Shown here one piece after another: positions 7,746-59,547 of a stretch of DNA of 64,000 nucleotides. The stretch is from positions 190,316 to 254,315 of the forward strand of contig JBMFJZ010000001.1 in assembly GCA_049973045.1 (NCBI GenBank), given 5' to 3'. Position 1 is the stretch's first letter. Every line of letters begins with the position of its first letter. The stretch comes from Bacteroidota bacterium. GTDB lineage: Bacteria > Bacteroidota > Ignavibacteria > 0-14-0-80-59-12. The notes beneath the pieces are model-generated. The model had not been told where the DNA came from, did not search any database, and saw only the letters and a list, made by a program, of their open reading frames with translations. The position numbers and the translations under genes were made by a program.

Positions 7746-7820
7746 TCGGGGCGGGCGGATTTGAACCGCCGACCTCACGGTCCCGAACCGTGCGCTCTAA
7801 CCAGACTGAGCCACGCCCCG
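7746..7820 (-). tRNA. tRNA-Pro (anticodon CGG)
   Basis: Minus-strand sequence CGGGGCGTGGCTCAGTCTGGTTAGAGCGCACGGTTCGGGACCGTGAGGTCGGCGGTTCAAATCCGCCCGCCCCGA folds as a cloverleaf: 7 bp acceptor, GGTTCAAAT T-loop, anticodon loop TTCGGGA. No encoded CCA. Confidence 0.85.
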
Positions 7821-15668: not shown

Positions 15669-15708
15669 AGAAACCTCAAAGATTTTTATTGAAAATGTAG
15701 GGAGTAAC

Positions 15709-21639: not shown

Positions 21640-22941
21640 ATGGTGAGAATCAAAGAGGTCGCTGCGGGCAGTATCGCTGCCAGCCTGAAATTGAGATCAG
21701 GCGATGAACTTGTTGAGATCAATGGGCACCGCATCAGGGACGAAATTGACTTGAGATTTTATGAAGCTGACCAGCACATCGAATTAAAGTGCGCTCATGA
21801 CGGCAAGGTCACTCTTTATGAAATTGAAAAAGAGACTGATGAACCTCTCGGTATCGTACTCGATGATATGAAGGTTCTCCATTGTGGCAACAATTGCATT
21901 TTTTGTTTTGTTGACCAAAACCCCAGGGGATTACGTGATGCGCTTTACATACGTGATGGAGATTATCGACTTTCGTTCATGTATGGTAACTACACGACTT
22001 TGACAAATGCAGGTAATGCGATTCTTCAGCGCATTGTCGAGCAAAGACTCTCCCCACTTTACATCTCTGTACATTCAACTGTGCCGGACATCCGTCGTAG
22101 ACTGCTGGGATTGAGGAAAGATGATCATCTCTTAGAAAAAATGCGCTTTCTTGCTAATCATGGCATTGACATGCACACGCAAATTGTTCTTTGTCCCGGG
22201 ATCAATGATGGAGCCTCGTTGCAGCAAACGATGCAGGACATGTGGGAGCTTCGAGACCATGTCATCTCACTGGCAATTGTTCCAGTTGGCTTAACTGATC
22301 ACCGAGCAAGCCTTGTGCCGTTGCAGCGCGTTGATAAGCTGTATGCAATGGAGCTACTTCAGACCGTCTGTGAGTGGCAGGAGAGGTTTCGCGCCATCGC
22401 AGGCAGAAATTTTGCCTATCCTTCCGATGAATTTTTCCTTCTTGCTGAGGAGAAGATCCCTGATTCTGCATACTACGATGGTTTCCCACAAATTGAAAAC
22501 GGTGTTGGAATGGTGCGGTCGTTTCTTGATCAGTTTGCCTGTGCCTCACGCCAGTTTCCGCGTCGCATGCCTGAACCAAAAACTATAACTCTTGCAACAG
22601 GTGTTCTTGCTTCCCCGTTTATCCGAAATGTTGTCGCTGGACGTCTTTCGAAGATCACAGGTTTAGAGGTGCGTGTTGCGGTGGCTTCCAATCGTTTGTT
22701 CGGGAAAAGCGTGACGGTGGCTGGTCTCCTCTCTGGAAAATGCTTCTATGAGGCTCTCCATGACCAACCACGAAGCGATTTAGTGCTGCTACCACCAGAT
22801 GTTCTCAATGAAGATGAGCTTTTCCTTGACGACTGGACACTCGATGAACTTTCAATGAAGTTAGACCAGAACGTACTGGTGTTTGACGGAAATTGGAGGC
22901 ATGTTTTTCGAATCCTTCATAAAAAGGAGAATCTGCATTGA
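21640..22941 (+). CDS. DUF512 protein (PDZ domain plus radical-SAM-like core)
   Basis: N-terminal PDZ-like segment, then HCGNNCIFCFVDQ Cys cluster and conserved C-terminal region characteristic of the DUF512 family. Family assignment from memory. Confidence 0.7.
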   Translation: MVRIKEVAAGSIAASLKLRSGDELVEINGHRIRDEIDLRFYEADQHIELKCAHDGKVTLYEIEKETDEPLGIVLDDMKVLHCGNNCIFCFVDQNPRGLRDALYIRDGDYRLSFMYGNYTTLTNAGNAILQRIVEQRLSPLYISVHSTVPDIRRRLLGLRKDDHLLEKMRFLANHGIDMHTQIVLCPGINDGASLQQTMQDMWELRDHVISLAIVPVGLTDHRASLVPLQRVDKLYAMELLQTVCEWQERFRAIAGRNFAYPSDEFFLLAEEKIPDSAYYDGFPQIENGVGMVRSFLDQFACASRQFPRRMPEPKTITLATGVLASPFIRNVVAGRLSKITGLEVRVAVASNRLFGKSVTVAGLLSGKCFYEALHDQPRSDLVLLPPDVLNEDELFLDDWTLDELSMKLDQNVLVFDGNWRHVFRILHKKENLH

Positions 22942-23717
22942 ACTCACAAAGAGTGGTCATCGTTTTCATTGTCTTTGTTTTATTCAATCAATTTCTGTTC
23001 GGTCAGTCATCGTTCGGCGTGGGCGATTTCGGCTGCCCGGGCGAAGTAAACCAGCCTCGGCCTGCCGGTCATTGGCAGTCTTTAGATCATAATACATCGA
23101 ATTGGCTGAGCGGAAATGAAGATCGCAAATGGGTGCTTGGAGCAGCATTGCTCTCGCTGGCGGTTCCCGGAGCCGGGCAATGGTACGCCTCTGATAAGCA
23201 GTCCGCTTTGATTTTCCTCGGCACCGAAGCAACACTATGGTTGGGATACGCAGCAGTTGATGCATATGGAAGATGGACACAGACGGGCGCAAGGATGTTC
23301 GCTGTGCAGCATGCGGGCATCGATCCAGTAGGTAAGAGCGACCAATTTTTCGTTGATATCGGGAATTTCATGAGCGTATATGACTATAATGAAAAGAAGT
23401 TAAGGGATCGAGCGCTGTCGAAGGTGTATGACCCTTCGCAGGGCTATTTTTGGCAATGGGATAATGTGGGCTCTCGATCGAGCTACCGGTCGATGCGGGT
23501 TACGGCTGATGCGGCGTTCAATGCAACAAAGTTCATCATTGCTGGAATAATTGTTAATCATATTGTCAGTGCAATTCATGCAGGCAATCGCGCTGCGAAA
23601 TGGAATGCATCTATTGAGATTTCTTCTGTGACAGGAGCCGGTGGGCGTGGGCAAGCCTCCTCCATTGCTTTTTTGAACCATAGATTTGTAAGTCTTCAGC
23701 TCAGATTTGCATTCTGA
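22938..23717 (+). CDS. Hypothetical secreted protein (DUF5683-like)
   Basis: Signal peptide; PGAGQWYASDK motif; start overlaps upstream stop (ATGA). Confidence 0.45.
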   Translation: MNSQRVVIVFIVFVLFNQFLFGQSSFGVGDFGCPGEVNQPRPAGHWQSLDHNTSNWLSGNEDRKWVLGAALLSLAVPGAGQWYASDKQSALIFLGTEATLWLGYAAVDAYGRWTQTGARMFAVQHAGIDPVGKSDQFFVDIGNFMSVYDYNEKKLRDRALSKVYDPSQGYFWQWDNVGSRSSYRSMRVTADAAFNATKFIIAGIIVNHIVSAIHAGNRAAKWNASIEISSVTGAGGRGQASSIAFLNHRFVSLQLRFAF

Positions 23718-34580: not shown

Positions 34581-35780
34581 TTACTTGATGAGAAGCATTC
34601 TCCTCGATTCGGAATAATTTCCTGCAATTAGCCGTATTACGTAAACTCCGCTGGGTAAATTCGAACCATCGAACTGGCTCTTATAGAAACCGGGTGAGAG
34701 TTCTCTATCGACCAGGGTGGCGACTTCTTGGCCGAGCATATCGTATACACGGAGGGACACCTTTGCCTGCGATCTAATTGAGAACTCGATTGTGGTTGCT
34801 GGGCTTCCGCCGTAGGCGGATCCACCTCTAACAGAAAATGGATTCGGATAGTTTTGCAGTAAACTATAGCCAGGCGGGACAGAGTTCAACTCTTTTTCGA
34901 CGTAGCTCGGGGTCCAGCTCACAGTAGCGTATTCATTCCAGGTGGCTGATGTCATTATATGGTATGCCCACAAGCTCACGCCTTGATAGTGGTATCCTTG
35001 GGCTACATTGCAAAAGCTGCTTATATCACCCGGATAAACAGGGTTGCCATAACCGAAGTAGCCTCCCTGTCCAATTGGAACTATTGGTGTTGTAACACCC
35101 CATATGGGGTACCACCATCCAAACTCGCTTTGCATGCGGTCAACTTCTTGCTTGGGAGTAAGCTTCCTTGCTGCCCAGTACGTTTGGGGCATGTTTACAT
35201 CCACTTTTTTAAGAAATGCTACCCAAGGGAAAGTAGAATGTACGCTAACACGAGCCCACGAGGTAAGTCCTACAAAGCTTTGCAAATGATGCGCCCTTAT
35301 GCTATCCATGTAACTTGCCGCAATGACCGTACGGTTCTGCAATGTATCAAATTCTATTTCAGCATCAACAAGCAAGCCGTCCAAGTCCGGTACATCAAGT
35401 ATCATGTTAGCCACATCTGCCTCGGTTACACCAATCCCCCAGCGTGGAGTGCCATAAATATACTGAAATCCAAAGAGCTCTATTCCGTTCTGGTGGAATA
35501 TTTTTACAACATTTTCCATCCCGCCGTAATTAAGTGCCCAGGTATACAGGGATTTGCCTGGTCTATTATAGTAGCTGTCACTGTCACCCATCTTAATAAC
35601 TACCCAGGTTACTCCTGAATTCTTCAGACGATTGATTATAGCCGTCAGATCACCACTCTCTACACTCCAGATCATCCAGATCCACATTCCCTTTGCTGCA
35701 GTTGGGACGAGAGCCTGCGCAACTGCAGCCAAGAATCCCGTGAGTACAAGTACAAAAATGATTGCTATTTTGACTTTCAT
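34581..35780 (-). CDS. Secreted glycoside-hydrolase-like (TIM-barrel-like) protein with T9SS CTD
   Basis: Signal peptide; C-terminal LLQNYPNPFSVRGGSAYGGSP...; catalytic domain family uncertain. Confidence 0.55.
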   Translation of the reverse strand: MKVKIAIIFVLVLTGFLAAVAQALVPTAAKGMWIWMIWSVESGDLTAIINRLKNSGVTWVVIKMGDSDSYYNRPGKSLYTWALNYGGMENVVKIFHQNGIELFGFQYIYGTPRWGIGVTEADVANMILDVPDLDGLLVDAEIEFDTLQNRTVIAASYMDSIRAHHLQSFVGLTSWARVSVHSTFPWVAFLKKVDVNMPQTYWAARKLTPKQEVDRMQSEFGWWYPIWGVTTPIVPIGQGGYFGYGNPVYPGDISSFCNVAQGYHYQGVSLWAYHIMTSATWNEYATVSWTPSYVEKELNSVPPGYSLLQNYPNPFSVRGGSAYGGSPATTIEFSIRSQAKVSLRVYDMLGQEVATLVDRELSPGFYKSQFDGSNLPSGVYVIRLIAGNYSESRRMLLIK

Positions 35781-36439
35781 TCCAAGCCTCCAGGATTTTC
35801 TTTCTCACACTGAAGTAATGAAAATGAATAGAGTATTTGATTGAATTGCCTTATGGTTGAACTGGTTGCGTCTTGCATCATGTGCAAGAGAGAGGACTGA
35901 ATTTCTTCCTTGGTCAATTTCTTATCGTTGATCACCTCGCCCGGCTTGCCCGATTGAAGGTCTTGTACAAGTGATATGACGTAATAACGATCTTTCTGAA
36001 GTGTGTAGCAATTAACCACCGCCTCCCATGCGCCCATGCCTGCATAGACTGCCCAGTATTCTCTCCGGAATTTCAGTCCATTTACCGTAATGGAATCAAT
36101 TAATAATCGGTCAATTAACAGATCCGCCTGAGCATTTTGATTCAGAAAATACCGTCCGCCGTAAGAACCCGGTAAATACACAAATGGTTCATTGGACACA
36201 GATACATAAGCGTACGGCGTAGACCCGTTCAGTCCGGATAGAGCGGAGAACTTGATCGAATAAGTTGCACTGTCTTCTCTCACAACCTCACCTGCAGTCT
36301 TGAACGAAAAACCAAAAGACTTGTTCGTGACCGTCTTCACCGACGACGAGATCTGGTCTTTGGGTTGTTGAGCAAAAGCAAGGAGATTATAAGATATGAC
36401 CAATACTGACACTGCAAGAATTTTGCATTTAGTAATCAT
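35777..36439 (-). CDS. Hypothetical secreted protein
   Basis: 220 aa ORF with signal peptide (ILAVSVLVISYNLLAFAQQ); stop overlaps the downstream gene start by 4 nt. Confidence 0.5.
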   Translation of the reverse strand: MITKCKILAVSVLVISYNLLAFAQQPKDQISSSVKTVTNKSFGFSFKTAGEVVREDSATYSIKFSALSGLNGSTPYAYVSVSNEPFVYLPGSYGGRYFLNQNAQADLLIDRLLIDSITVNGLKFRREYWAVYAGMGAWEAVVNCYTLQKDRYYVISLVQDLQSGKPGEVINDKKLTKEEIQSSLLHMMQDATSSTIRQFNQILYSFSLLQCEKENPGGLE

Positions 36440-36516: not shown

Positions 36517-38898
36517 TCATTTTATTAGCAACATTTTCCTCGATTCGGAATAACTTCCTGCAATCAGCCGTACTATGTAAACTCCACTGGGTAGACTGGA
36601 GCCATTGAACTGGGTCGTGTAGAAGCCTGGTGTGAGTTCTCTATCTATCAGGACAGCCACTTCCTGCCCGAGCACATCATAAACACGGAGAGATACTTTT
36701 ACCGCCGATGGCGGCACAAGTGCCTGCGAACCTATTGAAAACTCGATCGTCGTAGTCGGGTTAAATGGGTTCGGATAGTTTTGATACAGATGATAACCTT
36801 CAGCAATAGGAGGAGTTTCCACGACGCCGGTGGTTGAGCGTGTCTTAAATCGCCAAACCTCTGACCATTTGCTCGAACCGTAGGCGTTTATTGCAGCAAC
36901 CCTCCATGCATAGACTGTGCTTACCTGAAGAGAATCTTTTGTGAACTTGTAAGTCGTATCAGCTACCAGCACTGTATCGAGGATTGGTGCGGCGAAATCG
37001 ATGCTCCTGGAAACCTGAAGCCTATAGTTTAATGCGGCTGCCGATGGATGCCATATAAATGTTGGCTTGATCGAGATTTCTGTAGACAGATTGTTTGGAG
37101 AAGCAAGGAGTGGGGTCCTCGGAAACGCCGTGGTGTAATTCCATGTGTCACTGAACTGACCCGATCCACCTGCATTATTAGCTGCGACTCTCCAATGATA
37201 TTTCTGCAGACCCTCCATTCCAGTTATAAGTTTCAAAGTGTCTCTATATGCAAGTTCATCCACCAGAAGGTTACTTGCAAAGCTTGAATCCTGCGAGACT
37301 TGAACTCGATACGAAGCGGTTAGATACGAGCTGAACCAGTGTAGCACAACAGTATCGCGCTCATTCTCAGAACCATTTGCAGGTCCAGCTAAAAGTGGCG
37401 GCTGTGGCGCAGAGATCGTTACAGTGTTGCTCGATGAGCTTTCGTTATAATTGCGGTCAACAGCCGTAACGATGTAAGAATATGGACCTTTCCCTGGCGG
37501 GGTAGGAGGGGGAGTGCTCCGAGTTCCCTCAACTGAGATGATGTTTCGAGCGTCTGCGAGTTCGTCCGGAGTGATGTTTGAATGATCAAATCGGTAGATG
37601 ACGTAACGTGTAGCTGTATCCCCATCAATTGCAGGAACTGGAAGATCCCACCTGAGAATTGGTGGAGCATTTCCAGCTTGTGCATATTGTAGATTTTGTG
37701 GAGGATTAGGTGCAATGGAATCTTTCCATGCCATTTGGGGAAGAAGGGAGGGATAGCGATAGTAAACGAGCTTCAGTGAATCAGCGAAATTTCCATCGTT
37801 ACCGGTTATGTTCAAAGCTCTGAAGAAAATGCTTCCACCTACCTTTGCATTTGCTCTATTCTGCCTGATCTGCTGTTCAATTTCTCCGGGTCCCCAATTC
37901 GGGATTCTATATGCAGCTTGTCCCACGTATAAGTGTCTCCCATTCAGTTGCTCCGCCCACCATGGCATCAATTTGCCATAATCCTGATTGCCTCCATTGG
38001 GCCAATAAAGCTGCGGTGCGATGTAATCGATCGTTTTTGCATTAAGCCAGGCAAGCGCGTCAGCATACAGGACATTGTAAGCATCAAGTCCAATAATTCC
38101 CGGCGGAATTCCGTTTTTCCATATCCCGAACGGGGAGATTCCAAATTTCACCCATGGCTTGATTGCATTTGTGCTATCGTGCACTTGTTTGATCAACAGG
38201 TTAATGTTATCGCGTCGCCAATCTCCTCGATCTGTGAATCCGCGATTATAATGAGCGAAAGTTGAATCGTCTTCATTTGTAATTTGATTGGGGGGGTAGG
38301 GATAAAAATAATCGTCAAAGTGCACACCATCCACATCGTATCTTCGAACGACATCCATGATTACTGACGTAACATAATCTCTAACCTGTGGAAGTCCTGG
38401 GTCAAGTATCTTGAGCGTACCGAAGGTCAATATCCAATCTGGATGCTTGACAGAAACGTGATTGGGGTCGAGCTGATAGCTTCCAACACTTCTAACAGCT
38501 CTATATGGATTAAACCATGCATGGAGCTCCATGCCGCGTTTATGCGTCTCCTCTATAGCAAACTGGAGCGGATCATAGTATGGAGAAGGAGGCTGTCCCT
38601 GCTTTCCCGTTAGCCAGTATGACCATGGCTCAAGTGTCGATTGATAGAATGCATCACATTCAGGGCGAATCTGAAAAATCACCGCATTTATGCCGGCGTT
38701 TTTGAGCTTGTCAAGTAGTGTTACCAGTTCATTTTTTTGTTGATATGCTGGGAGTCCTCGTTGAGAAGGCCAGTCGAGATTAGTGACTGTCGCAATCCAT
38801 GCTCCGCGAAATTCACGCTTGGGCGGAGCGGAGGTTTGAGAACTTATGTTAGATACAGCAAATATCAGAAGTAGTGACAAGGAGTTCCTAAGACGCAT
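36517..38898 (-). CDS. Glycoside hydrolase family-10-like (GHL10/YngK-type) protein with Fn3-like domains and T9SS CTD
   Basis: N-terminal EFRGAWIATVTNLDWPS is the GHL10 hallmark; central Fn3-like repeats; C-terminal HLYQNYPNPFNPTTTIEF. Confidence 0.75.
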   Translation of the reverse strand: MRLRNSLSLLLIFAVSNISSQTSAPPKREFRGAWIATVTNLDWPSQRGLPAYQQKNELVTLLDKLKNAGINAVIFQIRPECDAFYQSTLEPWSYWLTGKQGQPPSPYYDPLQFAIEETHKRGMELHAWFNPYRAVRSVGSYQLDPNHVSVKHPDWILTFGTLKILDPGLPQVRDYVTSVIMDVVRRYDVDGVHFDDYFYPYPPNQITNEDDSTFAHYNRGFTDRGDWRRDNINLLIKQVHDSTNAIKPWVKFGISPFGIWKNGIPPGIIGLDAYNVLYADALAWLNAKTIDYIAPQLYWPNGGNQDYGKLMPWWAEQLNGRHLYVGQAAYRIPNWGPGEIEQQIRQNRANAKVGGSIFFRALNITGNDGNFADSLKLVYYRYPSLLPQMAWKDSIAPNPPQNLQYAQAGNAPPILRWDLPVPAIDGDTATRYVIYRFDHSNITPDELADARNIISVEGTRSTPPPTPPGKGPYSYIVTAVDRNYNESSSSNTVTISAPQPPLLAGPANGSENERDTVVLHWFSSYLTASYRVQVSQDSSFASNLLVDELAYRDTLKLITGMEGLQKYHWRVAANNAGGSGQFSDTWNYTTAFPRTPLLASPNNLSTEISIKPTFIWHPSAAALNYRLQVSRSIDFAAPILDTVLVADTTYKFTKDSLQVSTVYAWRVAAINAYGSSKWSEVWRFKTRSTTGVVETPPIAEGYHLYQNYPNPFNPTTTIEFSIGSQALVPPSAVKVSLRVYDVLGQEVAVLIDRELTPGFYTTQFNGSSLPSGVYIVRLIAGSYSESRKMLLIK

Positions 38899-39262: not shown

Positions 39263-40549
39263 TCACTTCATCAGAATCATCTTCTTCGTCAAATGGGTCC
39301 CTTCAGGTGCATCCAGTGTGTAAATGTAAACGCCCGAAGGCAAATTGCCGGCATTGAATGTCACCGAATGATACCCAGCAGATTTGTAGCCGTCAACTAA
39401 CGTGGCAACTTCTCTGCCGAGCACATCGTAGACTCTCAATGTAACCTTACCGGAATTCTTCAGAGCGAAGTCGATCTTCGTCGAGGGGTTGAACGGATTC
39501 GGATAGTTCTGAGAGAGCTCATATGCGACCGGGACTTCACCTTGTTCCCTAACTCCTACAGAGGGTGTACGGACGAACATCTGGACCGGGGTAACAGTGC
39601 TAATATTAAACGCAGCAACGTAGACAGTATCCCCTGTGGGGCTGAAGGCTATTCCTCTCGGCCGTGGATCGAGTGAAAGGTCACCCTGCCACTTAATGCT
39701 GTCGACGATCGTTTTAGTGGCAAGGTCATATGCATACCAGGCATAGGGGCTGTATGGTGGATCGGGCAATCCGGAAGTTGTGTTTCCTGAGCCTACCCAC
39801 ATCCACCCTGTCTTTGGATCCCAAGCCATCGTCTCAACGACGAACTGAGTTAAGATAGAATCCTGCAAGACGTATGGACCGAGCGACCCGTTGTCGCTAT
39901 GGTAGACGTAGACCTTTCTCAGGCTATAGCGTGGCACATAAACGTCGTTTCCATTCTTGGATACAAGGATGTCGCGTCCGTAGCCATCCACAGAACTGGC
40001 GACGTTGCCGGCAGGAGAGAAGTCGGGGTTAAAAACTGCTACTGCACCGCCTGGGAGCACGGGTGCGAGGAAAACCTCCCCCAATGAATCATCAGCAACG
40101 CCGGCAATAGACTTTGTGTACCCTGAGATGGGGTTCATGACCCGGTTCATCCCCTGCCCGGTCTTGTAATTGATCCTCCAGAGTCGAGTGCTCCATTTGA
40201 CAGAAAGAATGTTCCCTTGGTAATCTGTTCTCATCCCGTAGCCAGCACCGTTTAGTGTATCGGTGATGCCGCCTGCGCTCAGCATTTTGATTGGTGAGAA
40301 TGGAGCCGGCGTCCCGTCTGGATAGAACACATAGATTGCACCGGTCTTCACTCCAGGAGCCAGACTGTCGTTGGATCCGCTGTATGATTGTATCCATACT
40401 TTCCCTTCCGGATCAACTGCGATACCGTTGTTAACCCCTGAAGGGAGTTTAAAACTGGTATCCGGGAAAGCTTTTACAAATTGCCACTGCGCAATGGCAA
40501 AAGGAGTGGCGACAATCAATAGAATCAAGATAAGAGCAAGTTTTTTCAT
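39263..40549 (-). CDS. Secreted beta-propeller-like protein with T9SS CTD
   Basis: Signal peptide MKKLALILILLIVATPFAIAQ; start at ATG 40549 preceded by GGAGGT; C-terminal LSQNYPNPFNPSTKIDF. Confidence 0.7.
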   Translation of the reverse strand: MKKLALILILLIVATPFAIAQWQFVKAFPDTSFKLPSGVNNGIAVDPEGKVWIQSYSGSNDSLAPGVKTGAIYVFYPDGTPAPFSPIKMLSAGGITDTLNGAGYGMRTDYQGNILSVKWSTRLWRINYKTGQGMNRVMNPISGYTKSIAGVADDSLGEVFLAPVLPGGAVAVFNPDFSPAGNVASSVDGYGRDILVSKNGNDVYVPRYSLRKVYVYHSDNGSLGPYVLQDSILTQFVVETMAWDPKTGWMWVGSGNTTSGLPDPPYSPYAWYAYDLATKTIVDSIKWQGDLSLDPRPRGIAFSPTGDTVYVAAFNISTVTPVQMFVRTPSVGVREQGEVPVAYELSQNYPNPFNPSTKIDFALKNSGKVTLRVYDVLGREVATLVDGYKSAGYHSVTFNAGNLPSGVYIYTLDAPEGTHLTKKMILMK

Positions 40550-40689
40550 TCCTGACCTCCGTTCGACTAAGTTTAATGGTTGAATAACGTGAGCAATTTT
40601 CTCGACGCTCAACTTGTGAAACTTCTAAGGGAGCCCCTTGCATCACCTCCTTCAATGGCGATTTCTCATATAACAATGACCTCTATTTG

Positions 40690-41956: not shown

Positions 41957-42967
41957 TCAAAGCGAGAAATGAAATCCGAGTCGATGGACATTTGCAAACG
42001 TTTTAAACGGCGTAAAAGAATAGTCAAATCCTAAGGTAGTCCCTGCAATTTCTTTTTGCAAACCTATACCCGCGGTGAATCCATACTCATCGTTATTGAA
42101 CATATATCCAGCACGCAGCATAACAATCTGTGCAAATCGGTATTCTGCGCCAATGTTGACCTGCTCAGGATAATCGCGCGGATGAGTTGCATCGACGGAA
42201 AGAAGGAGTGAATGTATATATTTGTCGACGTCGGTAAGATCCAGTACGTCCATCGCAAACCCGATCCTGAAAATAAGTGGTAGCTGGAATGACTCCTGTC
42301 GGTATTTCAACTCGCGAGCGAAATTGCGCACGCTCATCCCAAAGGTAAGACTTTTGAATCCGGTTTTGTATATAATTCCGAAATCAAAAGAGGGGACATT
42401 CAACTTATTGTCAACTCTGATCAGATTTCCGGCAGAGTCCAATCCTACTGCGCTCATTCCGAGTGATTGGTAGACGAAGTTGACGTTTCCCCCGACTGCA
42501 AACCTGTCGCTCAATGCACGGGCATATCCTACACCTACAGCAAGTGCTGTCGGCTTAAAAGTACCGACGTCAAGGAATCCCTGCTCATTGTTTGCACGGA
42601 TTGTTTCCTGAAGCTCTCCATAATCTACAGAACGAAGTGTAATGCCGAAAACGCCGTAATCTCCATGAAACGGGCTGAACGCGATGCTGGCGAAGACGTG
42701 GTTGATGTCAGCAATCCAGTTTACGCGACCGAAAGATATGTCCGCAAAGCTACCCAATCTCGCCATCCCAGCAGGATTGTAGAACATCGCCGTTGATGTT
42801 CCCTCTATGGCAGTGACCGCTTCGCCAATGGCTGCTATTCGAGGGTCAGGACCGACGCTAATAAATTTCATGCCGGTTTGCGCAAGCTTCTGCTGTCCAC
42901 ATGCAAAACTTCTTGCGATTGTAAACAAAAGGAACATGCTTGATAAGAAAATAATAAACCTCTTCAT
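41957..42967 (-). CDS. PorV/PorQ-like outer-membrane beta-barrel protein (T9SS-associated family)
   Basis: Signal peptide MKRFIIFLSSMFLLFTIARSFA; FYNPAGMA motif and alternating amphipathic strands. Start chosen at ATG 42967 (RBS AAGGA). Family assignment from memory. Confidence 0.5.
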   Translation of the reverse strand: MKRFIIFLSSMFLLFTIARSFACGQQKLAQTGMKFISVGPDPRIAAIGEAVTAIEGTSTAMFYNPAGMARLGSFADISFGRVNWIADINHVFASIAFSPFHGDYGVFGITLRSVDYGELQETIRANNEQGFLDVGTFKPTALAVGVGYARALSDRFAVGGNVNFVYQSLGMSAVGLDSAGNLIRVDNKLNVPSFDFGIIYKTGFKSLTFGMSVRNFARELKYRQESFQLPLIFRIGFAMDVLDLTDVDKYIHSLLLSVDATHPRDYPEQVNIGAEYRFAQIVMLRAGYMFNNDEYGFTAGIGLQKEIAGTTLGFDYSFTPFKTFANVHRLGFHFSL

Positions 42968-42995
42968 GGTCATTGTCCTTGATCGTTTGAGACTT

Positions 42996-45053
42996 TCATC
43001 TGATGACGACAAACTTTCGTATGGCCCTTTCGCCAGTGGGCGTCTCAATAACAACGATGTACACCCCACTCACAATGATCTGATTATACGATGTCGTTAG
43101 ATCCCAGTATTCATCACCGCTGCCATTGGTATGTTCGATTGTCTTAATGAGTTCTCCGAGCTCAGTGTAAATTTTGATAGTGCATTCGCCAGGGATATTC
43201 AGAAAACCGATCTTATTAGGCTCATTTGGGTAGAGAAGACGATTGGGGTCAGCAGCAATGTTGTACGGGTTCGGAACAACCCGTATGGCGTAGAGTGAGC
43301 TTCCCGGTGGCCTCAGGAGATACGCTGGGTCATAGGACTGAGTATAATAACGACCGCTGACCAATCCTCCATCTCCAACAGAAACGATGTAGTAATAATG
43401 AGCAACTCCACGCACAACAGAGGTGTCCCTGTAACTGTTCTCGGTCGGCTGGGCTTCATAAATCAAACGGTAGGCGCTATCATAACGTGCCACAGCTCTG
43501 TAAATTCTAAAGCCCCTGAGCGTAGGGTCATTAGGGATATCCCAGGTGAGAGTAATGCGATCGCCGCCGGAGGTAACATTAAATGATGAGGGTGGCAACG
43601 GTGGCTGAGGGATGTTATAGCCAGAGTTGTAGTTTGCTATCGCACGTCTGAAAGTCTGGAACAGAGAATCTCGCCCCGTGTACACCCATTCGTTCTTTGT
43701 TTTCTGCACACCTTTGTAAGTAATGGGTGCCGTATTATTCCCTCCACTTGCCTTATACGCTCTGCCAATCTCAATGCAGGCTTCACGGTCAAGACCCGCT
43801 GCTGCCTCAGCCATCACAATGTGGATACTCTGACCCGGTCCAAGACGATAAGGTCCGTATCCATTAGCAATGGAGTAGCCACCTGTTGTTCCCAGAGACG
43901 GGTCGCCTCCAGGACCGACTTTGTCGGCGTGGCGTGGAGACATGTGCCCTGATGCCATCCACGCATATTCATTTTGCATTTTCGGGATGTTGTATTGATC
44001 GTTCTGGGAATTCAGTGGGTCATCGGAGCTAACGTACATCGTAGTGCTTGGCTGGTTAGGGTCATCTGTTGTGTCCGTCGGAGATCGGTCGGCGTGAATG
44101 GTCACAACGCCAACAAACTGCGCTGCGCCTAACCTGCCTGTAGTATCAAATTTGTCCACGTATCCATACGGGTCTGGTTCCCAGATAGGTCCTCCGATGT
44201 TATCGTACTTGGTAAAAGGTGGATATTTGCCATGCCACGAATATTGTGCGCGAATATCATTGTCTTTATTCCCGGGAAAGAATGTTGTAGAGGGATTCAA
44301 GCCGTCACCACGGGCGTCGTTCATTGTATTGATTCCCCATCCGGTAGCGTTGCCAAATACGTATCGGGTCTGTCTGTTTACCGCATAACGGTACTGAAAG
44401 AAAATGTAGAGGCTGTCGAGAGTTTGATTAGGCAGCTCGATCTCCGGGTCAGCATCTATGTTTCCGGTATTTGTGAACGTGTAATCGTAAATGATGTAGT
44501 TATCATTGTACTGCTGACTGAATGCAAGTATCTTCCTTGTCATCGTCAAGCCTATCGATGTGTTGACGACGTTGTAGATCATTCGGTCAGCTTTCAACGT
44601 TGGGTCGACCGCATCATTGTCATTTGGCTTGCTATAAGAGAGGTTTCCGTCTACAAAGACCCGAGGTGGATCGAAGCGACTGATCGTCTTGAATTCGATG
44701 GGGAAGAACTCACCAACGCCTGAAACCCTTGGTCCAACGTGCACCACTTTTGCAGGATAAAACCTCCCTTCTGCATCAGTGTAATTTTTTACGCCTATCC
44801 AGAGCCCTTTTGCCGCCTCCATATCCTGATACGGATAAATAGCTGGCCATTGCAAGCCGTCCTGTTGGACCTTCACTCTCCCTTCCTCGATTTCGCACCC
44901 CATATTTGAATACCAACTTTGCAGCGAACCAACCGCCATCCATTTTGTGGCAAACTGTGCTTGAGCCGAGGATGAGATTAAGAGGAGTAAAGTTATGAAG
45001 AGTAAAGCAAATCGGCTTACTGTTGTGTGTCGCTGATATGAACCCAGAATCAT
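42996..45053 (-). CDS. Large secreted protein with Fn3-like domain and variant C-terminal sorting-type domain
   Basis: Signal peptide; C-terminal VVPNPYNIAADP...GVYIVVIETPTGERAIRKFVVIR resembles a T9SS CTD but lacks the canonical NYPNPFN. Confidence 0.6.
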   Translation of the reverse strand: MILGSYQRHTTVSRFALLFITLLLLISSSAQAQFATKWMAVGSLQSWYSNMGCEIEEGRVKVQQDGLQWPAIYPYQDMEAAKGLWIGVKNYTDAEGRFYPAKVVHVGPRVSGVGEFFPIEFKTISRFDPPRVFVDGNLSYSKPNDNDAVDPTLKADRMIYNVVNTSIGLTMTRKILAFSQQYNDNYIIYDYTFTNTGNIDADPEIELPNQTLDSLYIFFQYRYAVNRQTRYVFGNATGWGINTMNDARGDGLNPSTTFFPGNKDNDIRAQYSWHGKYPPFTKYDNIGGPIWEPDPYGYVDKFDTTGRLGAAQFVGVVTIHADRSPTDTTDDPNQPSTTMYVSSDDPLNSQNDQYNIPKMQNEYAWMASGHMSPRHADKVGPGGDPSLGTTGGYSIANGYGPYRLGPGQSIHIVMAEAAAGLDREACIEIGRAYKASGGNNTAPITYKGVQKTKNEWVYTGRDSLFQTFRRAIANYNSGYNIPQPPLPPSSFNVTSGGDRITLTWDIPNDPTLRGFRIYRAVARYDSAYRLIYEAQPTENSYRDTSVVRGVAHYYYIVSVGDGGLVSGRYYTQSYDPAYLLRPPGSSLYAIRVVPNPYNIAADPNRLLYPNEPNKIGFLNIPGECTIKIYTELGELIKTIEHTNGSGDEYWDLTTSYNQIIVSGVYIVVIETPTGERAIRKFVVIR

Positions 45054-48511: not shown

Positions 48512-51121
48512 ATGAAGCTTTCTCAGAAGGTCGCTTCCTTATTTGCTTTTATTCTGGTGTTTATTTTTCCATGGATCAGCAATTCACAAGACGTTTCGCT
48601 TCTGCGCTCAGCTTTTGAATCTGCAAGTAAAGAATTCGATGTTCCAGTCGAACTTCTTAAAGGCATTGCATTTGTTGAATCGCGATGGACGCAGCTTCAG
48701 CCTCATGCAGATTCCTCCTCGGCAAACTGTACAGGGATGCCCCCAGCCTACGGGGTCATGGGTCTGCGGGATGATGAATACTTTGGACATTCACTTGTCG
48801 AAGCAGCGAAATTGATTCATCGTTCGCCTGAAGAACTGAAGCACAATCCTGCTGAGAATATTCGTGGGGCAGCCGCACTATTGAAGAAGCTTGCAGCTAC
48901 TCATTTGAAGAAAGCTGCCCCTCAGCTTGAGTCATGGAATGACGTTGTCGCTGCCTATAGTGGGATCCCTCAGCAGGCTATTGCACGACTTTATGCACAG
49001 GACGTGTATCGGGTTCTTGCCACGGGCTGGCATTCAGAACGGATTGATATTGAGCCTCACGTCATTCAGATGAATCTCAACTCGGATTCCCTCATACGAG
49101 CAATGGGAGGAGAACCACTTCCGCCATCGCTGTTGTCTGATGACTATCCACTGGCAGTGTGGGATCCAAGTCAGAATTTCAGCTCGCGTGGGGGGGAAGC
49201 AATTACCCGGGTCATTATCCATGACACAGAAGGATCGTTTGCCGGTGCTCTCTCATGGCTAAAAAATCCACAGGCTCAGGCAAGTGCTCATTACATCATC
49301 CGCAGCTCTGATGGATATATTGTTCAACTGGTGCGCGAGCGAGACAAGGCATGGCATGCAAGGTGCTGGAATCCATTTACGGTTGGAATCGAGCATGAAG
49401 GGTATGTAAATAATCCTTCATTTTTTACTGACGTCATGTATCGCTCATCGGCTGCACTCACACGCAGCATCACAAGGAAGTATGGTATTCCACAGGATTT
49501 GTATCACATCATTGGGCATGGCGTCTGGACGCAAAGGAGCATCTGGTCGGTAATTCGTCACGACCAGGATTTTGCACGATATGACCCCAATAGCACCGAC
49601 TATAGTTCATGCAATGATCATACAGACCCAGGCCAGTACTGGAACTGGCAATACTATCTGGCTCTTGTCAAAGCGGATAGTGCACCACCGCGCATCTTAG
49701 CTATGGCTCCCTCTCCCGGAACCATTGGATACAAGGCATACAAACCTCTCGTGATTACATTTGATAAGCCGATGATTCAACAGCGGACGGATTCAGCGCT
49801 TCACATAACTCCACCGATCCAGGGCTCGATCACCTGGTCAAACAATTATCAGACTATGACGTTCCGGCCTAATCAATTTTGGAATTTCTCGACTACGTAT
49901 ACCGTCATGGTTGATACAACGGCTCTGAGCATCGCAGGAATTTCAATCGATGGCAATGGAGATGGCACAGGGGGAGATCCCTTCATGGCACAGTTTACAA
50001 CCACTGCACCTGATATTACACCTCCACGTATAATCAGCGTATATCCATTGTGGGGGATGGATAATGTGTCAACATATACATCGATGCGAATTGTGTTTGA
50101 TGAGCCAGTGCAATGGTCTTCACTTGCTGGGCGCGTTTTGCTGTACGACGATAGCAGTCGTATAGTCGGTGTGACGGAGGCTCGAAGCGATACAGTGAAC
50201 GATTTCAATTACGTGACGTTCAGGCCTGCTGCTCCGCTTCGCTCCCACGCAGGGTATGCGATCAAACTTGGTGCTGGTATCAAGGACCTTTTCGGAAACG
50301 GAACGACAAATGATGAATGGATTTACTTTTTCACACAGAATGAATTTCTTCCTGGCGTGGTTGTTGATAGCTTTGAAACTCAAGCTGGTTGGCAACAGCC
50401 CATGGCGAGTCTCGCCACAGTGGGAGCTGATTCTGCCCGAACAAAATTTGCCATCTCAAATGAACGTGTCTATGCAGGACGTTATGCGGGTAAACTTTCA
50501 TACGCTTTTCTCTATGATAGCGGTGGGCTTGTGTGCGAACATAATGCTGCAGGGGTTCCTATCGAAGGAAGGTCAACGATTGGTGCATGGATTTATGGTG
50601 ACGCGAGTGGCAACACTCTGGAGTTATGGTTTTCACCCGGTGACACAAAGATTGTAATCGGTCCCTTAGTCTGGTTTGGCTGGCGGTACGTGAACGTTTT
50701 TGTAAGAGATGTGCCGGGAAACAGCCGCTCTTTAAGCAGCATCATCGTCCGGCAAGTGCCGGGAGCTTCGAAAGGCGGGGCTATTTTCATTGATGATCTT
50801 CAAGTCAATGGATTGATCTCGAAGGTGGAATCACAGCCGTTAGTTCCTGAACGAGCTTACCTCAATCAGAACTATCCAAACCCGTTCAATTCGTCCACGA
50901 TAATTTCATTTGGCTTACCGGAACCGGCAGCAGTAACGCTGAAAGTCTACGATGTTCTTGGGCGGGAGGTGGCGACACTGGTCAGCGGGAAAATAGCGGC
51001 TGGGACACATATGGTGACGTTCGATGCCTCCCATCTTCCGAGCGGTATTTATTTTTATCGCCTTGAGATGAACGGTGCAACTCACTTTGTTTCAATAAAG
51101 AAATTGGTTCTTTTAAGGTAA
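48512..51121 (+). CDS. Secreted N-acetylmuramoyl-L-alanine amidase (Amidase_2/PGRP-like) with Ig-like domains and T9SS CTD
   Basis: VIIHDTEGSFAGALSWL...AHYIIRSSDG...GIEHEGY amidase_2 motifs; SbsA/Big-like repeats; C-terminal LNQNYPNPFNSSTIISF. Confidence 0.75.
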   Translation: MKLSQKVASLFAFILVFIFPWISNSQDVSLLRSAFESASKEFDVPVELLKGIAFVESRWTQLQPHADSSSANCTGMPPAYGVMGLRDDEYFGHSLVEAAKLIHRSPEELKHNPAENIRGAAALLKKLAATHLKKAAPQLESWNDVVAAYSGIPQQAIARLYAQDVYRVLATGWHSERIDIEPHVIQMNLNSDSLIRAMGGEPLPPSLLSDDYPLAVWDPSQNFSSRGGEAITRVIIHDTEGSFAGALSWLKNPQAQASAHYIIRSSDGYIVQLVRERDKAWHARCWNPFTVGIEHEGYVNNPSFFTDVMYRSSAALTRSITRKYGIPQDLYHIIGHGVWTQRSIWSVIRHDQDFARYDPNSTDYSSCNDHTDPGQYWNWQYYLALVKADSAPPRILAMAPSPGTIGYKAYKPLVITFDKPMIQQRTDSALHITPPIQGSITWSNNYQTMTFRPNQFWNFSTTYTVMVDTTALSIAGISIDGNGDGTGGDPFMAQFTTTAPDITPPRIISVYPLWGMDNVSTYTSMRIVFDEPVQWSSLAGRVLLYDDSSRIVGVTEARSDTVNDFNYVTFRPAAPLRSHAGYAIKLGAGIKDLFGNGTTNDEWIYFFTQNEFLPGVVVDSFETQAGWQQPMASLATVGADSARTKFAISNERVYAGRYAGKLSYAFLYDSGGLVCEHNAAGVPIEGRSTIGAWIYGDASGNTLELWFSPGDTKIVIGPLVWFGWRYVNVFVRDVPGNSRSLSSIIVRQVPGASKGGAIFIDDLQVNGLISKVESQPLVPERAYLNQNYPNPFNSSTIISFGLPEPAAVTLKVYDVLGREVATLVSGKIAAGTHMVTFDASHLPSGIYFYRLEMNGATHFVSIKKLVLLR

Positions 51122-51263
51122 TACCACAATGAAAAACCGATTGTGGCTCTCTCTTGCTCTTCTCGTCTTCGCTTTTAGTGGCACCTGAGGCGCCATTTGG
51201 AGCCAACTTAAGCCAAAGCCTTATGAGCCTCTGGCTCAGAATGTACTGACACCATGTGTTACA

Positions 51264-51653
51264 GTGAAGATTTATTTTGAGAATGACTCCCTCGAGCAAC
51301 GTGATGCTGTAGAGATGGGGCAGCATGGGGAATTTGTTCGTGTGTATCCCATAAAGCGATGTATTTCTGCTCTGCAACTACCTACAGCAACACTTCGGGA
51401 ACTTCTGAAGGGACCTACCGAGGCAGAGCGAGAGCAGGGTTACGACACTAATCTTGAAGGACTCACTCTCAGACGTTTTTGGGTTCGTCGGGGTGTTGCA
51501 ACAGTTGATTTAGTAGGCGAGCTTCGCTTGCGCGGTGAGCTATCCGGCCTGCGTCTTCGACTGCAGGTTGAAAAAACACTTAAGCAATTTCGTACCATAC
51601 GTAAAGTCGTAATCCGTGTCAATGGCAGAACAGATTTTGATTCATTGAGGTGA
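51264..51653 (+). CDS. GerMN-domain protein; intact ORF lacks the signal peptide, which lies upstream beyond an in-frame TGA
   Basis: VKIYFEND...LRELLKGPTEAEREQGY...VATVDL...IRKVVIRVNG fits the GerMN pattern. Same-frame ATG at 51129 encodes MKNRLWLSLALLVFAFSGT and is followed by TGA at 51186-51188. Confidence 0.5.
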   Translation: MKIYFENDSLEQRDAVEMGQHGEFVRVYPIKRCISALQLPTATLRELLKGPTEAEREQGYDTNLEGLTLRRFWVRRGVATVDLVGELRLRGELSGLRLRLQVEKTLKQFRTIRKVVIRVNGRTDFDSLR

Positions 51654-52561
51654 CAATGGCAAACAAGAAAAAGGTTGGATTTATTGGCTTAGGAACAATG
51701 GGTAAGCCAATGGCAAGGAACCTTCTGAGAGCTGGCTACGATCTTGTGGTCTATAATCGGACACAGGAGAAAATCAGCCAGGGTGGACTTGTGGCAGCAG
51801 GGGCAAAAAGCGCAGCTTCCCCAAAAGAGGTTGGTGAAAGTGCAGAGATAATTTTCCTCATGCTAACTGATCCTGCTGCAGTTGATCAAATTCTATTTGG
51901 CAAAGATGGAGTTGTTGATGGTGCGAGAGCAGGTGCGTTAATTGTGGATTGCAGTACAGTTCCACCAACGTTTTCACGGTCACTCGCTGAAAGACTCCGT
52001 GAGAGAGAAATGATGTTTATAGACGCTCCTGTTACTGGCAGCAAGCAGGCAGCAGAAAATGCGGAGCTTGTTTTCCTTGTCGGCGGTGAGGCCGAAAACG
52101 TCGCTGTTGTGAAGCCCTTGCTGGAGAAAATGGGGAAGGCGGTCTTTCATCTTGGCGGAGTCGGTATGGGATCCTCAACAAAGCTGGCGGTGAATCTCAT
52201 GCTGGCAACTATGATGGTGGCGTTTGCGGAAGGACTGCTCTTTGCCGAAAGTTTGAGAGTTCCCCGTGAAAAACTTCTCGAAGTTGTCGGCATGAGCGCA
52301 ATACAGTCACCTCTTTTTCGACTGAAAGGAATGGTGATCCAGCAAGACGATTACACGCCAAGCTTTGCCCTTGACCTGATGCTGAAAGATTTGCGCCTTA
52401 TCGCTGATGAAGCAGCAAGGACAAATACACCGCTGCCGGTTACGGGGTTGGTAAAGGAGCTCTACACTTCAGCAGCGGTGAATGGATTTGGCGGTGAGGA
52501 TTTCGCTGCTGTCTTCAAGTTTTATAAATTTCTTACGGCTGGTTCGAAAAAGAAAGATTAA
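51650..52561 (+). CDS. NAD(P)-dependent oxidoreductase, 3-hydroxyisobutyrate dehydrogenase family
   Basis: Rossmann motif VGFIGLGTMGKPMARNL and conserved HIBADH-type catalytic region. Confidence 0.85.
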   Translation: MTMANKKKVGFIGLGTMGKPMARNLLRAGYDLVVYNRTQEKISQGGLVAAGAKSAASPKEVGESAEIIFLMLTDPAAVDQILFGKDGVVDGARAGALIVDCSTVPPTFSRSLAERLREREMMFIDAPVTGSKQAAENAELVFLVGGEAENVAVVKPLLEKMGKAVFHLGGVGMGSSTKLAVNLMLATMMVAFAEGLLFAESLRVPREKLLEVVGMSAIQSPLFRLKGMVIQQDDYTPSFALDLMLKDLRLIADEAARTNTPLPVTGLVKELYTSAAVNGFGGEDFAAVFKFYKFLTAGSKKKD

Positions 52562-54302: not shown

Positions 54303-54375
54303 GCGCCCATGGCTCAATTGGTAGAGCAACTGACTCTTAATCAGTGGGTTCCAGGTTCGAGTCCTGGTGGGCGCA
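54303..54375 (+). tRNA. tRNA-Lys (anticodon CTT)
   Basis: GCGCCCATGGCTCAATTGGTAGAGCAACTGACTCTTAATCAGTGGGTTCCAGGTTCGAGTCCTGGTGGGCGCA; 7 bp acceptor, GGTTCGAGT T-loop, anticodon loop CTCTTAA. Confidence 0.85.
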
Positions 54376-54458
54376 CAAGGTCGTCTTTTTCCAGAGTGAC
54401 CTTGGATGCTAGGGAACCGTAGTCCTTCAGCACTCATGTGGATAACACATTTCTCACC

Positions 54459-59003: not shown

Positions 59004-59431
59004 GGGGGTGACCAGGTTTCGACGGGATGAGGATGGTCAGAACTGCGTACCGTGCTTTCCGTGTGCACGTTAAACAAGCGGAGAAACCAATAAGTGCGAA
59101 CTACGATTACGCACTGGCAGCTTAAGCCCGGCTTGGGCAGGTTGCCCGTCCTTTTTTGTCAGTCCGCCTACGGCGGATTGATCCGTGGCGTTTAGAGTGC
59201 TACGGAGCTTCTCCTACCGAGCCACTAAAGGGCGTCGATCACGGGTAGGATAGTTAGTGCTTTTTCCCGGTGAGCACTAACGAAGGGCGCTAAAGGCGCC
59301 GTGAGCCGGGATAGCCTTCCGCCGGTCGCGCCGTCCGATAGGCAGAAGGCAAAAAGAAAAAAGGCAGGCTGCGTACGGAGACGTTCTGATGGTCTTCTTC
59401 TCGGACGCGGGTTCGATTCCCGCCACCTCCA
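59004..59431 (+). ncRNA. ssrA: tmRNA (transfer-messenger RNA)
   Basis: 5' GGGGGTGACCAGGTTTCGACGGG and 3' GGACGCGGGTTCGATTCCCGCCACCTCCA tRNA-like ends whose termini pair as an acceptor stem; internal tag reading frame ending ...GCGAACTACGATTACGCACTGGCAGCTTAA (ANYDYALAA*). Confidence 0.85.
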
Positions 59432-59547
59432 CTCTGCTTGCTTTCAGCGATAACTGTAAATCGAAAATAGCAAATTTTAAATTTCATCTGCTCTCATTCC
59501 CATGGCAAATCTTCTGACAATCACTACTGTCCCGCCAAACGCGAGAT

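What the first reader, a model, noticed from the sequence alone, without database searches (positions are those of the whole stretch)
51129..51653. GerMN-domain gene whose signal peptide is separated from the domain by an in-frame TGA
ATG 51129 encodes a convincing signal peptide (MKNRLWLSLALLVFAFSGT), then TGA at 51186-51188, then the same frame continues without further stops into a well-formed GerMN-like domain (to 51653). This may be a recent nonsense mutation (pseudogene), a sequencing or assembly error, or stop-codon read-through; without the upstream part the domain would lack its export signal.
Basis: seen in the sequence. Interest (0 to 1): 0.45.

Follow-up and report, generated by a model that had tools for sequence, protein, structure and literature searches.

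The report
Nonsense-interrupted secreted GerMN gene
A small exported cell-envelope protein gene in an uncultured Ignavibacteria-like bacterium carries a real single-base nonsense mutation (CGA to TGA) just after its signal peptide; this is an ordinary, probably recent gene inactivation, not an error or recoding.

Summary
ATG 51129 opens a 19-codon signal peptide, TGA sits at 51186-51188, and the same frame runs open to 51653 through a genuine GerMN domain (Pfam 45 bits; AlphaFold pLDDT 92; best fold matches are B. subtilis GerM).

The TGA is not an assembly error. It occurs in four distinct haplotypes from five assemblies. A sister lineage (88% identical protein, same synteny, same 174-codon length) has CGA (Arg) at that codon, one C-to-T transition away.

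All 13 closest small family members carry an N-terminal hydrophobic leader or lipobox, so the upstream part belongs to the gene.

Selenocysteine and code reassignment are rejected:
- there is no SECIS-like fold;
- the orthologous residue is Arg, not Cys;
- TGA is the commonest ordinary stop here (27 of 49 ORFs).

The annotated downstream GTG start has no ribosome-binding signal.

The domain shows no decay (dN/dS 0.10, like its neighbours). The mutation is therefore either recent (at most about a quarter of the time since the two lineages split) or still tolerated through leaky read-through.

Best reading: a young, lineage-fixed nonsense allele that cuts the export signal from the domain. It is ordinary and of low interest.

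The parts
51129..51185 (+). Codons 1-19, the signal peptide MKNRLWLSLALLVFAFSGT. In this lineage it is left as a stand-alone 19-codon ORF.
   Evidence: Sequence and translation. The orthologue has the same start and a hydrophobic leader. There is a moderate Shine-Dalgarno-like AAGG upstream at -3.9 kcal/mol, against a gene median of -4.6. All close family members have a leader.
51186..51188 (+). In-frame TGA at codon 20. The sister lineage has CGA (Arg) here. The codon sits at position +1 after the predicted signal-peptidase site (S-G-T|).
   Evidence: Alignment A1 of 10 loci. The TGA is present in window=L006, L008, L007 and L009, which differ by 0, 1, 4 and 7 SNPs. The cleavage-site placement is my inference from the -3/-1 rule.
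51189..51263 (+). Codons 21-45, a linker between leader and domain (GAIWSQLKPKPYEPLAQNVLTPCVT). It is specific to this lineage and its sister.
   Evidence: The frame is open. dN/dS is 0.35 against the sister. The linker is absent from 12 other small family members. Residues 1-20 of the model have lower pLDDT, and the first strand starts at full-length residue 43.
51264..51653 (+). The GerMN domain. This is the 129-aa ORF that gene callers and NCBI annotate from GTG 51264, ending at TGA 51651-51653.
   Evidence: Pfam PF10646. NCBI names it 'GerMN domain-containing protein', e.g. MGB9773142.1. AF2 pLDDT is 92.3. Foldseek best hits are GerM 6GZB/6GZ8 at probability 1.0. dN/dS is 0.10. The GTG has no SD-like signal: +0.7 kcal/mol, worse than 98% of gene starts.
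48512..51121 (+). Upstream gene, 7 nt away: a T9SS-sorted peptidoglycan hydrolase (SLT + Amidase_2 + 2x Big_5 + Por_Secre_tail). It is the conserved neighbour and the likely functional partner.
   Evidence: Pfam and NCBIfam. The same gene order is seen in the sister lineage and in the Ignavibacteriaceae MAG L010.
51656..52561 (+). Downstream gene, 2 nt after the GerMN stop: a beta-hydroxyacid dehydrogenase (NAD_binding_2/11) with its own GAGGTG ribosome-binding site. It is probably co-transcribed.
   Evidence: Pfam and NCBIfam. SD energy is -6.9 kcal/mol. No terminator-like site lies between the genes.

Best explanation
This is one gene for a small exported GerMN-domain protein: signal peptide, short linker, single GerMN domain, 174 codons. 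It sits in an operon-like row directly behind a secreted peptidoglycan amidase/lytic transglycosylase. In the lineage the window comes from, a single C-to-T transition turned codon 20 (CGA, Arg) into TGA. This organism reads TGA as an ordinary stop. Ribosomes starting at ATG 51129 therefore release a 19-residue signal peptide, and the GerMN domain is no longer made with an export signal. The allele is fixed in all sampled strains of the lineage. It is evolutionarily young, because the domain has not accumulated any excess of amino-acid changes. The gene is most likely a recent pseudogene or severe hypomorph. Shown: the TGA is real, the orthologous sense codon is known, the leader belongs to the gene, TGA is a normal stop, and SECIS and SD signals are absent. 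Inferred: loss of the exported protein, its peptidoglycan-related role, and the signal-peptidase site.
For: The sequence is as described.

Intact orthologues: P0001 and P0004-P0007 are 174 aa and 88% identical, and read ...VSGA-R-GEIWSQ... where the window has ...FSGT-*-GAIWSQ.... The DNA alignment shows CGA against TGA. Synteny and gene lengths match in the sister lineage: 869/867, 301/301 and 496/496 aa.

The TGA is real: it occurs in five assemblies forming four haplotypes with nested SNPs. No intact version of this lineage's allele exists in its 90% cluster of the 15-billion-protein collection.

TGA is a normal stop: it ends 27 of 49 long ORFs, including this gene itself.

The leader belongs to the gene: all 13 nearest small GerMN proteins, including the syntenic L010 gene, have a hydrophobic leader or lipobox. 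So do 55 of 67 small representatives. Rigden and Galperin 2008 report that GERMN proteins are largely predicted lipoproteins, are fused to an amidase in one species, and are proposed to bind peptidoglycan (PMC2732212).

No alternative start: GTG 51264 lacks any SD-like signal, although this organism uses them.

The mutation is young: domain dN/dS is 0.10 against 0.10-0.20 for the neighbours. Eleven non-synonymous differences are observed, against about 60 expected had the TGA branch been neutral since the split (P about 1e-15). The upper bound on neutral time is about 0-23% of that branch.
Against: The domain shows no decay at all. All family-invariant residues are kept. The amino-acid changes split evenly between the two lineages when polarised with 12 outgroups. 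This fits a recent mutation, but it fits continued selection on a still-expressed product equally well. Within-lineage diversity is about 0.2% or less, so too little time is sampled to expect secondary lesions either way. No expression, proteomic or read-level data could be examined.
Confidence: 0.7

Rival explanations
1. Leaky allele. The gene still works at a reduced level, because UGA is occasionally read by a near-cognate tRNA (for example tRNA-Trp), giving a small amount of full-length exported protein. That would keep the domain under purifying selection.
For: Domain dN/dS is 0.10 with all invariant residues kept. The signal peptide is still well formed. The TGA is fixed in every sampled strain. 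From my own knowledge, not tested here, UGA is the leakiest bacterial stop codon.
Against: No read-through-promoting structure or motif was found. The data are equally explained by a young mutation. Spontaneous read-through is normally well below a few per cent (established knowledge).
Confidence: 0.15
2. Leaderless protein. The 129-aa product from GTG 51264, as annotated by NCBI, is made and acts in the cytoplasm, either by independent initiation or by re-initiation after the 19-codon upstream ORF.
For: The GTG ORF contains the whole Pfam domain. A few small GerMN representatives in the library lack a leader, for example P0045 at 129 aa. The domain is conserved.
Against: GTG 51264 has no SD-like signal: +0.7 kcal/mol, worse than 98% of gene starts in the window. 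It lies 75 nt beyond the TGA, which is far for re-initiation. The equivalent codon is an internal Val in the sister lineage and Ile in L010. The family is overwhelmingly extracytoplasmic. The product would lose the first three residues of strand 1.
Confidence: 0.07
3. Recoding. The TGA encodes selenocysteine, or the organism uses a code in which TGA is a sense codon.
For: Only that the frame stays open after the TGA.
Against: The orthologous codon is CGA (Arg), not Cys or Sec. The 75 nt after the UGA fold no better than shuffles (z = -0.7), and there is no hairpin at the SECIS position. The small GAGCC/GGCTC hairpin 37 nt downstream is also present in the CGA lineage. Rfam finds nothing. TGA terminates 27 of 49 ORFs. 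No sel genes or tRNA-Sec are in the window.
Confidence: 0.01
4. Sequencing or assembly error. The true base at 51186 is C.
For: None beyond the a priori possibility in a metagenome-assembled genome.
Against: The same T is seen in GCA_049700715.1, GCA_049969995.1, GCA_964569485.1 and ERZ3623746. These are distinguishable haplotypes differing by 0, 1, 4 and 7 SNPs with a nested pattern. The site is not in a homopolymer or repeat. Neighbouring genes are full length.
Confidence: 0.02
5. The upstream ATG-to-TGA ORF is fortuitous, and the gene always started at the downstream GTG.
For: Gene callers chose the GTG ORF.
Against: The sister lineage has an uninterrupted 174-codon ORF from the same ATG. 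The linker has dN/dS 0.35. All close relatives carry leaders. The SD signal supports the ATG and not the GTG.
Confidence: 0.01

Closest known systems
GerMN (Germane, PF10646) domain proteins: B. subtilis GerM (PDB 6GZB/6GZ8), the C. perfringens putative lipoprotein 5J7R, and actinobacterial LpqB
   Same: The Pfam match is above threshold. The predicted alpha/beta fold matches GerM best. The ancestral architecture has an N-terminal export signal. There is a genomic association with a peptidoglycan amidase, echoing the amidase fusion and the proposed peptidoglycan binding reported by Rigden and Galperin 2008.
   Different: It has a single domain of about 130 residues in a non-sporulating FCB-group bacterium. 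Identity to GerM is only about 20%, and no PDB hit is detectable by sequence. The leader is a signal-peptidase-I type rather than a lipobox in this lineage. In the window the leader is cut off by a stop codon.
Small single-GerMN exported proteins of uncultured bacteria (P0008-P0015, P0021-P0023; the L010 Ignavibacteriaceae gene)
   Same: They are 149-166 aa and 35-48% identical. They share the C-terminal motif RLRxQVE(K/R)TLKQF...INGxxDFDSL(K/R) and all have N-terminal leaders. L010 has the same amidase-then-GerMN gene order.
   Different: The window gene and its sister carry an extra linker of about 19-25 residues after the leader. Only the window lineage has the premature stop.
Ordinary bacterial pseudogenes made by a single nonsense mutation
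   Same: An intact orthologue has a sense codon one transition away (CGA to TGA). The allele is fixed in the lineage. There is no recoding signal.
   Different: There are no secondary lesions yet, and dN/dS is still low. It is therefore at the very start of decay, or leaky. By chance the stop falls exactly at the predicted signal-peptide cleavage site.
Bacterial selenoprotein genes (UGA plus a downstream SECIS)
   Same: There is an in-frame UGA followed by an open frame.
   Different: There is no SECIS. The orthologue has Arg rather than Cys. The position is the first residue of the mature protein, not a catalytic site.

Membership tests
GerMN / Germane domain family (PF10646) | The sequence matches the family HMM above the curated cut-off. 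| tested here: met
   E = 1.8e-11, 45.1 bits against a cut-off of 23, residues 48-168, profile positions 2-115 of 117.
GerMN / Germane domain family (PF10646) | The fold is the GerM-type alpha/beta fold. | tested here: met
   The AF2 model has pLDDT 92.3 and pTM 0.82. Foldseek top hits are 6GZB, 6GZ8 (GerM) and 5J7R, with probability 1.0 and TM 0.55-0.62.
GerMN / Germane domain family (PF10646) | The protein is extracytoplasmic: an N-terminal signal peptide or lipobox is contiguous with the domain. | tested here: not met
   In the window, TGA 51186-51188 separates leader and domain. The feature is met in the sister lineage and in all 13 closest relatives. It is typical of the family but not an absolute defining feature.
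GerMN / Germane domain family (PF10646) | The protein binds peptidoglycan or carbohydrate, or acts in envelope remodelling. | not testable with these tools
   There is only the conserved adjacency to an SLT+Amidase_2 gene and the literature proposal.
Nonsense-mutation pseudogene | An intact orthologue has a sense codon one substitution away at the stop position. | tested here: met
   CGA (Arg) in five sister-lineage loci against TGA in five loci of this lineage.
Nonsense-mutation pseudogene | The stop is real, meaning reproducible in independent data. | tested here: met
   Four haplotypes from five assemblies. Raw reads were not available.
Nonsense-mutation pseudogene | There is relaxed selection or secondary lesions downstream of the stop. 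| tested here: not met
   Domain dN/dS is 0.10, there are no further stops or frameshifts, and changes split evenly between the lineages. This is compatible with a very young pseudogene, so it lowers but does not remove the claim.
Nonsense-mutation pseudogene | The full-length product is absent. | not testable with these tools
   This needs proteomics or ribosome profiling.
Bacterial selenoprotein gene | A SECIS stem-loop lies immediately 3' of the UGA. | tested here: not met
   The fold of 51186-51260 has z = -0.7 against shuffles. There are only weak inverted repeats, which are shared with the CGA lineage. Rfam finds nothing.
Bacterial selenoprotein gene | Homologues have Cys or Sec at the aligned position. 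| tested here: not met
   The sister lineage has Arg. More distant relatives lack the position altogether.
Bacterial selenoprotein gene | selA/selB/selD and tRNA-Sec are present in the genome. | not testable with these tools
   None are in the 64-kb window.
TGA-reassigned genetic code (tables 4 / 25) | TGA is not used as a terminator and is frequent inside genes. | tested here: not met
   TGA ends 27 of 49 long ORFs, and gene lengths match orthologues under table 11.

The most novel reading that the evidence does not exclude
The UGA is maintained rather than merely tolerated. Low-efficiency read-through, or re-initiation after a 19-codon 'signal-peptide-only' upstream ORF, would set a very low level of the GerMN protein, or a leaderless form of it, next to its amidase partner. 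That would make this a natural example of stop-codon-based dosage tuning of a secreted envelope protein in an FCB-group bacterium.
Probability: 0.05. Interest if true: 0.5.

Novelty: new member of a known kind. Interest (0 to 1): 0.12.

Why it matters
It matters little beyond annotation. The 129-aa "GerMN domain-containing protein" in the public MAG records (for example MGB9773142.1) is almost certainly the tail of a disrupted 174-codon gene, and would be better flagged as a pseudogene or "internal stop". It is a clean example of a very young nonsense allele that is fixed in a natural population of an uncultured bacterium, still has an intact orthologue one transition away, and shows no decay yet. 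The conserved pairing of a small exported GerMN protein with a T9SS-sorted amidase/transglycosylase in Ignavibacteria-like genomes gives mild support to the old proposal that GerMN domains act on peptidoglycan. If the allele turned out to be leaky by design, it would be of moderate interest.

Tried and rejected
- **Closer outgroup.** I looked for a closer outgroup to date the mutation. The word-indexed protein search found only the sister cluster and one 34% hit. The GTDB genome scan found one 43-57% relative plus three Acidobacteriota hits near 30%. The JGI metagenome scan found only the sister lineage, the same 57% relative and one 32% hit. No branch-specific dN/dS was therefore possible.
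- **Polarising amino-acid changes.** Polarisation with 12 distant family members has low power and showed no asymmetry.
- **Signal-peptide decay.** The signal-peptide dN/dS of about 0.96 looked like decay. The intact amidase's signal peptide diverges just as fast, with an indel, between the lineages, so it is not evidence.
- **Clustered substitutions.** Seven of 15 nt differ around the TGA, but this is not significant (permutation P = 0.11).
- **SECIS or other RNA signals.** I used folding, inverted-repeat search, and Rfam at gathering and at E ≤ 5. Nothing was found.
- **PDB sequence search** with the domain gave no hit at E ≤ 1. The fold search was needed instead.
- **Antisense ORF 50982-51377.** It has no family match and overlaps two supported genes, so I treat it as a shadow ORF.
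- **Recoding machinery.** Pfam annotation of the rest of the window found none.

Full report
**1. The observation**

- ATG 51129 opens MKNRLWLSLALLVFAFSGT.
- Codon 20 is TGA (51186-51188).
- The same frame continues for 154 codons to TGA 51651-51653.

Replacing the stop by any residue gives a 174-residue protein. Its residues 48-168 match Pfam Germane/GerMN (PF10646) at E = 1.8e-11, 45.1 bits against a cut-off of 23.

An AlphaFold2 model of residues 21-174, built on 40 homologues, is confident (mean pLDDT 92.3, pTM 0.82). Its best PDB matches are the GerMN domains of B. subtilis GerM (6GZB, 6GZ8) and a C. perfringens putative lipoprotein (5J7R), all at probability 1.0. The "well-formed GerMN-like domain" is therefore real.

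The N-terminal 19 residues have the layout of a signal peptide. There are two basic residues, a 12-residue hydrophobic core (mean Kyte-Doolittle score 2.5 over 11 residues), and then S-G-T. By the -3/-1 rule (my inference), cleavage would fall right after Thr19. The stop therefore occupies position +1 of the mature protein.

**2. Context**

The window is an ordinary, densely coded chromosomal stretch. It holds RelA/SpoT, Der, S1, IspH, Cmk, TruA, glycosyltransferases and a tmRNA. Several proteins carry T9SS C-terminal sorting domains.

NCBI names the source "Bacteroidota bacterium". The nearest GTDB genome with the same local gene order is an Ignavibacteriaceae MAG.

The GerMN gene starts 7 nt after a secreted peptidoglycan hydrolase gene at 48512-51121 (SLT + Amidase_2 + two Big_5 + T9SS tail). 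It ends 2 nt before a beta-hydroxyacid dehydrogenase gene. No terminator-like site lies between these genes.

**3. Is the TGA real?**

Yes. An exact-sequence look-up shows that the 129-aa product called from GTG 51264 occurs in three NCBI MAG records and an ENA assembly.

Aligning the DNA shows the same TGA in all of them. The loci are distinguishable haplotypes. They differ from the window by 0, 1, 4 and 7 SNPs in a nested pattern, and one SNP lies inside the signal peptide.

A shared sequencing or assembly artefact is therefore very unlikely. The site is not in a homopolymer or repeat.

**4. What do orthologues have there?**

A sister lineage has an uninterrupted 174-codon gene. It comprises P0001 and P0004-P0007, seen on contigs of up to 750 kb from several metagenomes. 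It is 88% identical, with the same start, the same length and the same neighbours.

At the TGA position it has CGA (Arg)...VSGA-R-GEIWSQ.... One C-to-T transition therefore separates the two states.

The 90%-identity cluster in a collection of about 15 billion proteins contains no intact version of the window lineage's own allele.

**5. Does the upstream part belong to the gene?**

Yes. An exhaustive phmmer search of 1.84 billion representatives found 1107 relatives.
- The closest are small single-domain proteins of 149-166 aa, 35-48% identical.
- Every one of them begins with a hydrophobic leader, and several have a lipobox.
- The syntenic gene of the Ignavibacteriaceae MAG also has one.
- Of 67 small representatives with a Met start, 55 have such a leader. 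Most of the rest look like fragments.

Rigden and Galperin (2008, PMC2732212) reported that GERMN proteins are largely predicted lipoproteins, are fused to an amidase in one species, and probably bind peptidoglycan.

**6. Alternatives to plain termination**

*Selenocysteine.*
- The orthologous residue is Arg, not Cys.
- The 75 nt after the UGA fold no better than shuffled sequence (z = -0.7).
- The only small hairpin lies 37 nt downstream and is also present in the CGA lineage.
- Rfam finds nothing.

*Genetic-code change.* TGA is the commonest terminator in the window (27 of 49 long ORFs). Neighbouring genes have the same lengths as their orthologues under table 11.

*Independent start at GTG 51264.*
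- This organism does use Shine-Dalgarno-like sequences. The median gene start is -4.6 kcal/mol, against a background of -2.6.
- ATG 51129 has a moderate one (-3.9).
- ATG 51656 of the next gene has a good one (-6.9).
- GTG 51264 has none (+0.7, worse than 98% of gene starts).
- That codon is an internal Val in the sister lineage and Ile in the distant orthologue.

**7. How old is the mutation, and is the gene decaying?**

Nei-Gojobori dN/dS values between the window and the sister lineage:

| Region | dN/dS |
|---|---|
| Whole GerMN gene | 0.18 |
| Neighbouring genes | 0.17, 0.20, 0.10 |
| GerMN domain | 0.10 (11 non-synonymous differences, dS 0.39) |
| Linker | 0.35 |
| Signal peptide | about 0.96 |

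The signal-peptide value is not evidence of decay. The intact amidase's signal peptide diverges at least as fast between the lineages.

Had the TGA lineage evolved neutrally since the split, about 60 non-synonymous differences would be expected in the domain (P about 1e-15 for seeing 11 or fewer). The 95% upper bound on neutral time is 0-23% of that branch, depending on the assumed background constraint.

All family-invariant residues are kept. Changes polarised with 12 outgroups split evenly between the two lineages.

Diversity among the TGA-bearing strains is about 0.2% or less. No secondary lesions would be expected yet in any case.

The mutation is therefore either young, or the domain is still under selection. 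These data cannot separate the two.

**8. Most likely mechanism**

*Shown:*
- The gene was ancestrally a leader-linker-GerMN protein.
- Codon 20 is now a genuine UGA in a standard-code organism, with no recoding signal.
- No credible alternative start exists.

*Inferred:*
- Translation from ATG 51129 ends after 19 residues, so the GerMN domain is no longer exported.
- The gene is a very recent pseudogene or a strong hypomorph.
- The protein's normal role is in the cell envelope, probably with the adjacent amidase/transglycosylase on peptidoglycan.
- The long untranslated stretch might also reduce expression of the downstream genes.

I put about 0.7 on this reading, about 0.15 on a leaky but still useful allele, about 0.07 on a leaderless product from the GTG, and about 0.01-0.02 each on selenocysteine, an error, or a fortuitous upstream ORF.

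**9. Comparison with what is known, and novelty**

The protein is a bona fide member of the GerMN family by sequence and fold. It belongs to an undescribed but unremarkable subfamily of small exported single-domain proteins.

The in-frame stop is an ordinary nonsense mutation. The only curiosities are that it falls exactly at the predicted cleavage site, and that it is fixed while the rest of the gene is pristine.

The practical consequence is for annotation. The public 129-aa "GerMN domain-containing protein" entries are most likely the tail of a disrupted gene.

Interest is low.

Noticed in passing
window 59004-59434 (+): A tmRNA gene (Rfam 158.6 bits) with tag peptide ANYDYALAA. tRNA-Lys(CTT) is at 54303-54376 and tRNA-Pro(CGG) at 7745-7820.
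   Followed up: no
window 34581-35780 (-), 36517-38898 (-), 39263-40612 (-), 48512-51121 (+): Four proteins carry T9SS C-terminal sorting domains. One combines SLT, Amidase_2 and two Big_5 domains, an unusual double peptidoglycan hydrolase. This points to an FCB-group (Ignavibacteria-like) organism.
   Followed up: partly
window 51070 (start of L007 and L009): Two independent assemblies both break their contig at the same base, inside the T9SS-tail coding region of the amidase gene. This is presumably an assembly break at a domain repeated across the genome.
   Followed up: no
window 51189-51263: The window lineage and its sister have a linker of about 19-25 residues (GAIWSQLKPKPYEPLAQNVLTPC) between leader and GerMN domain. 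Twelve other small family members lack it. It evolves at dN/dS 0.35, so it was probably functional.
   Followed up: partly
window 51180-51196: Seven of 15 nt differ from the sister lineage right around the TGA. This is the densest cluster in the gene, but it is not significant by permutation (P = 0.11).
   Followed up: yes
window 50982-51377 (-): A 131-aa antisense ORF spans the end of the amidase gene and the start of the GerMN gene. It has no Pfam match and is partly open in the sister lineage too. It is most likely a shadow ORF.
   Followed up: partly
window 14654-15340 (+): A Schlafen/AlbA_2-domain protein sits among housekeeping genes (a monofunctional transglycosylase upstream, cytidylate kinase downstream).
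   Followed up: no
window 41957-45053 (-), 35777-36439 (-), 22938-23717 (+), 15661-16317 (+): Five sizeable ORFs (685, 370, 220, 259 and 218 aa) have no Pfam match at E ≤ 1e-5 or 1e-6. The two largest lie between a TonB-dependent-receptor-like gene and a TIG-domain gene.
   Followed up: no
P0045 (129 aa), P0082, P0109, P0120, P0141 (library representatives): A minority of small GerMN representatives lack any N-terminal hydrophobic leader. They could be fragments, mis-called starts, similar truncations, or genuinely cytoplasmic forms.
   Followed up: no
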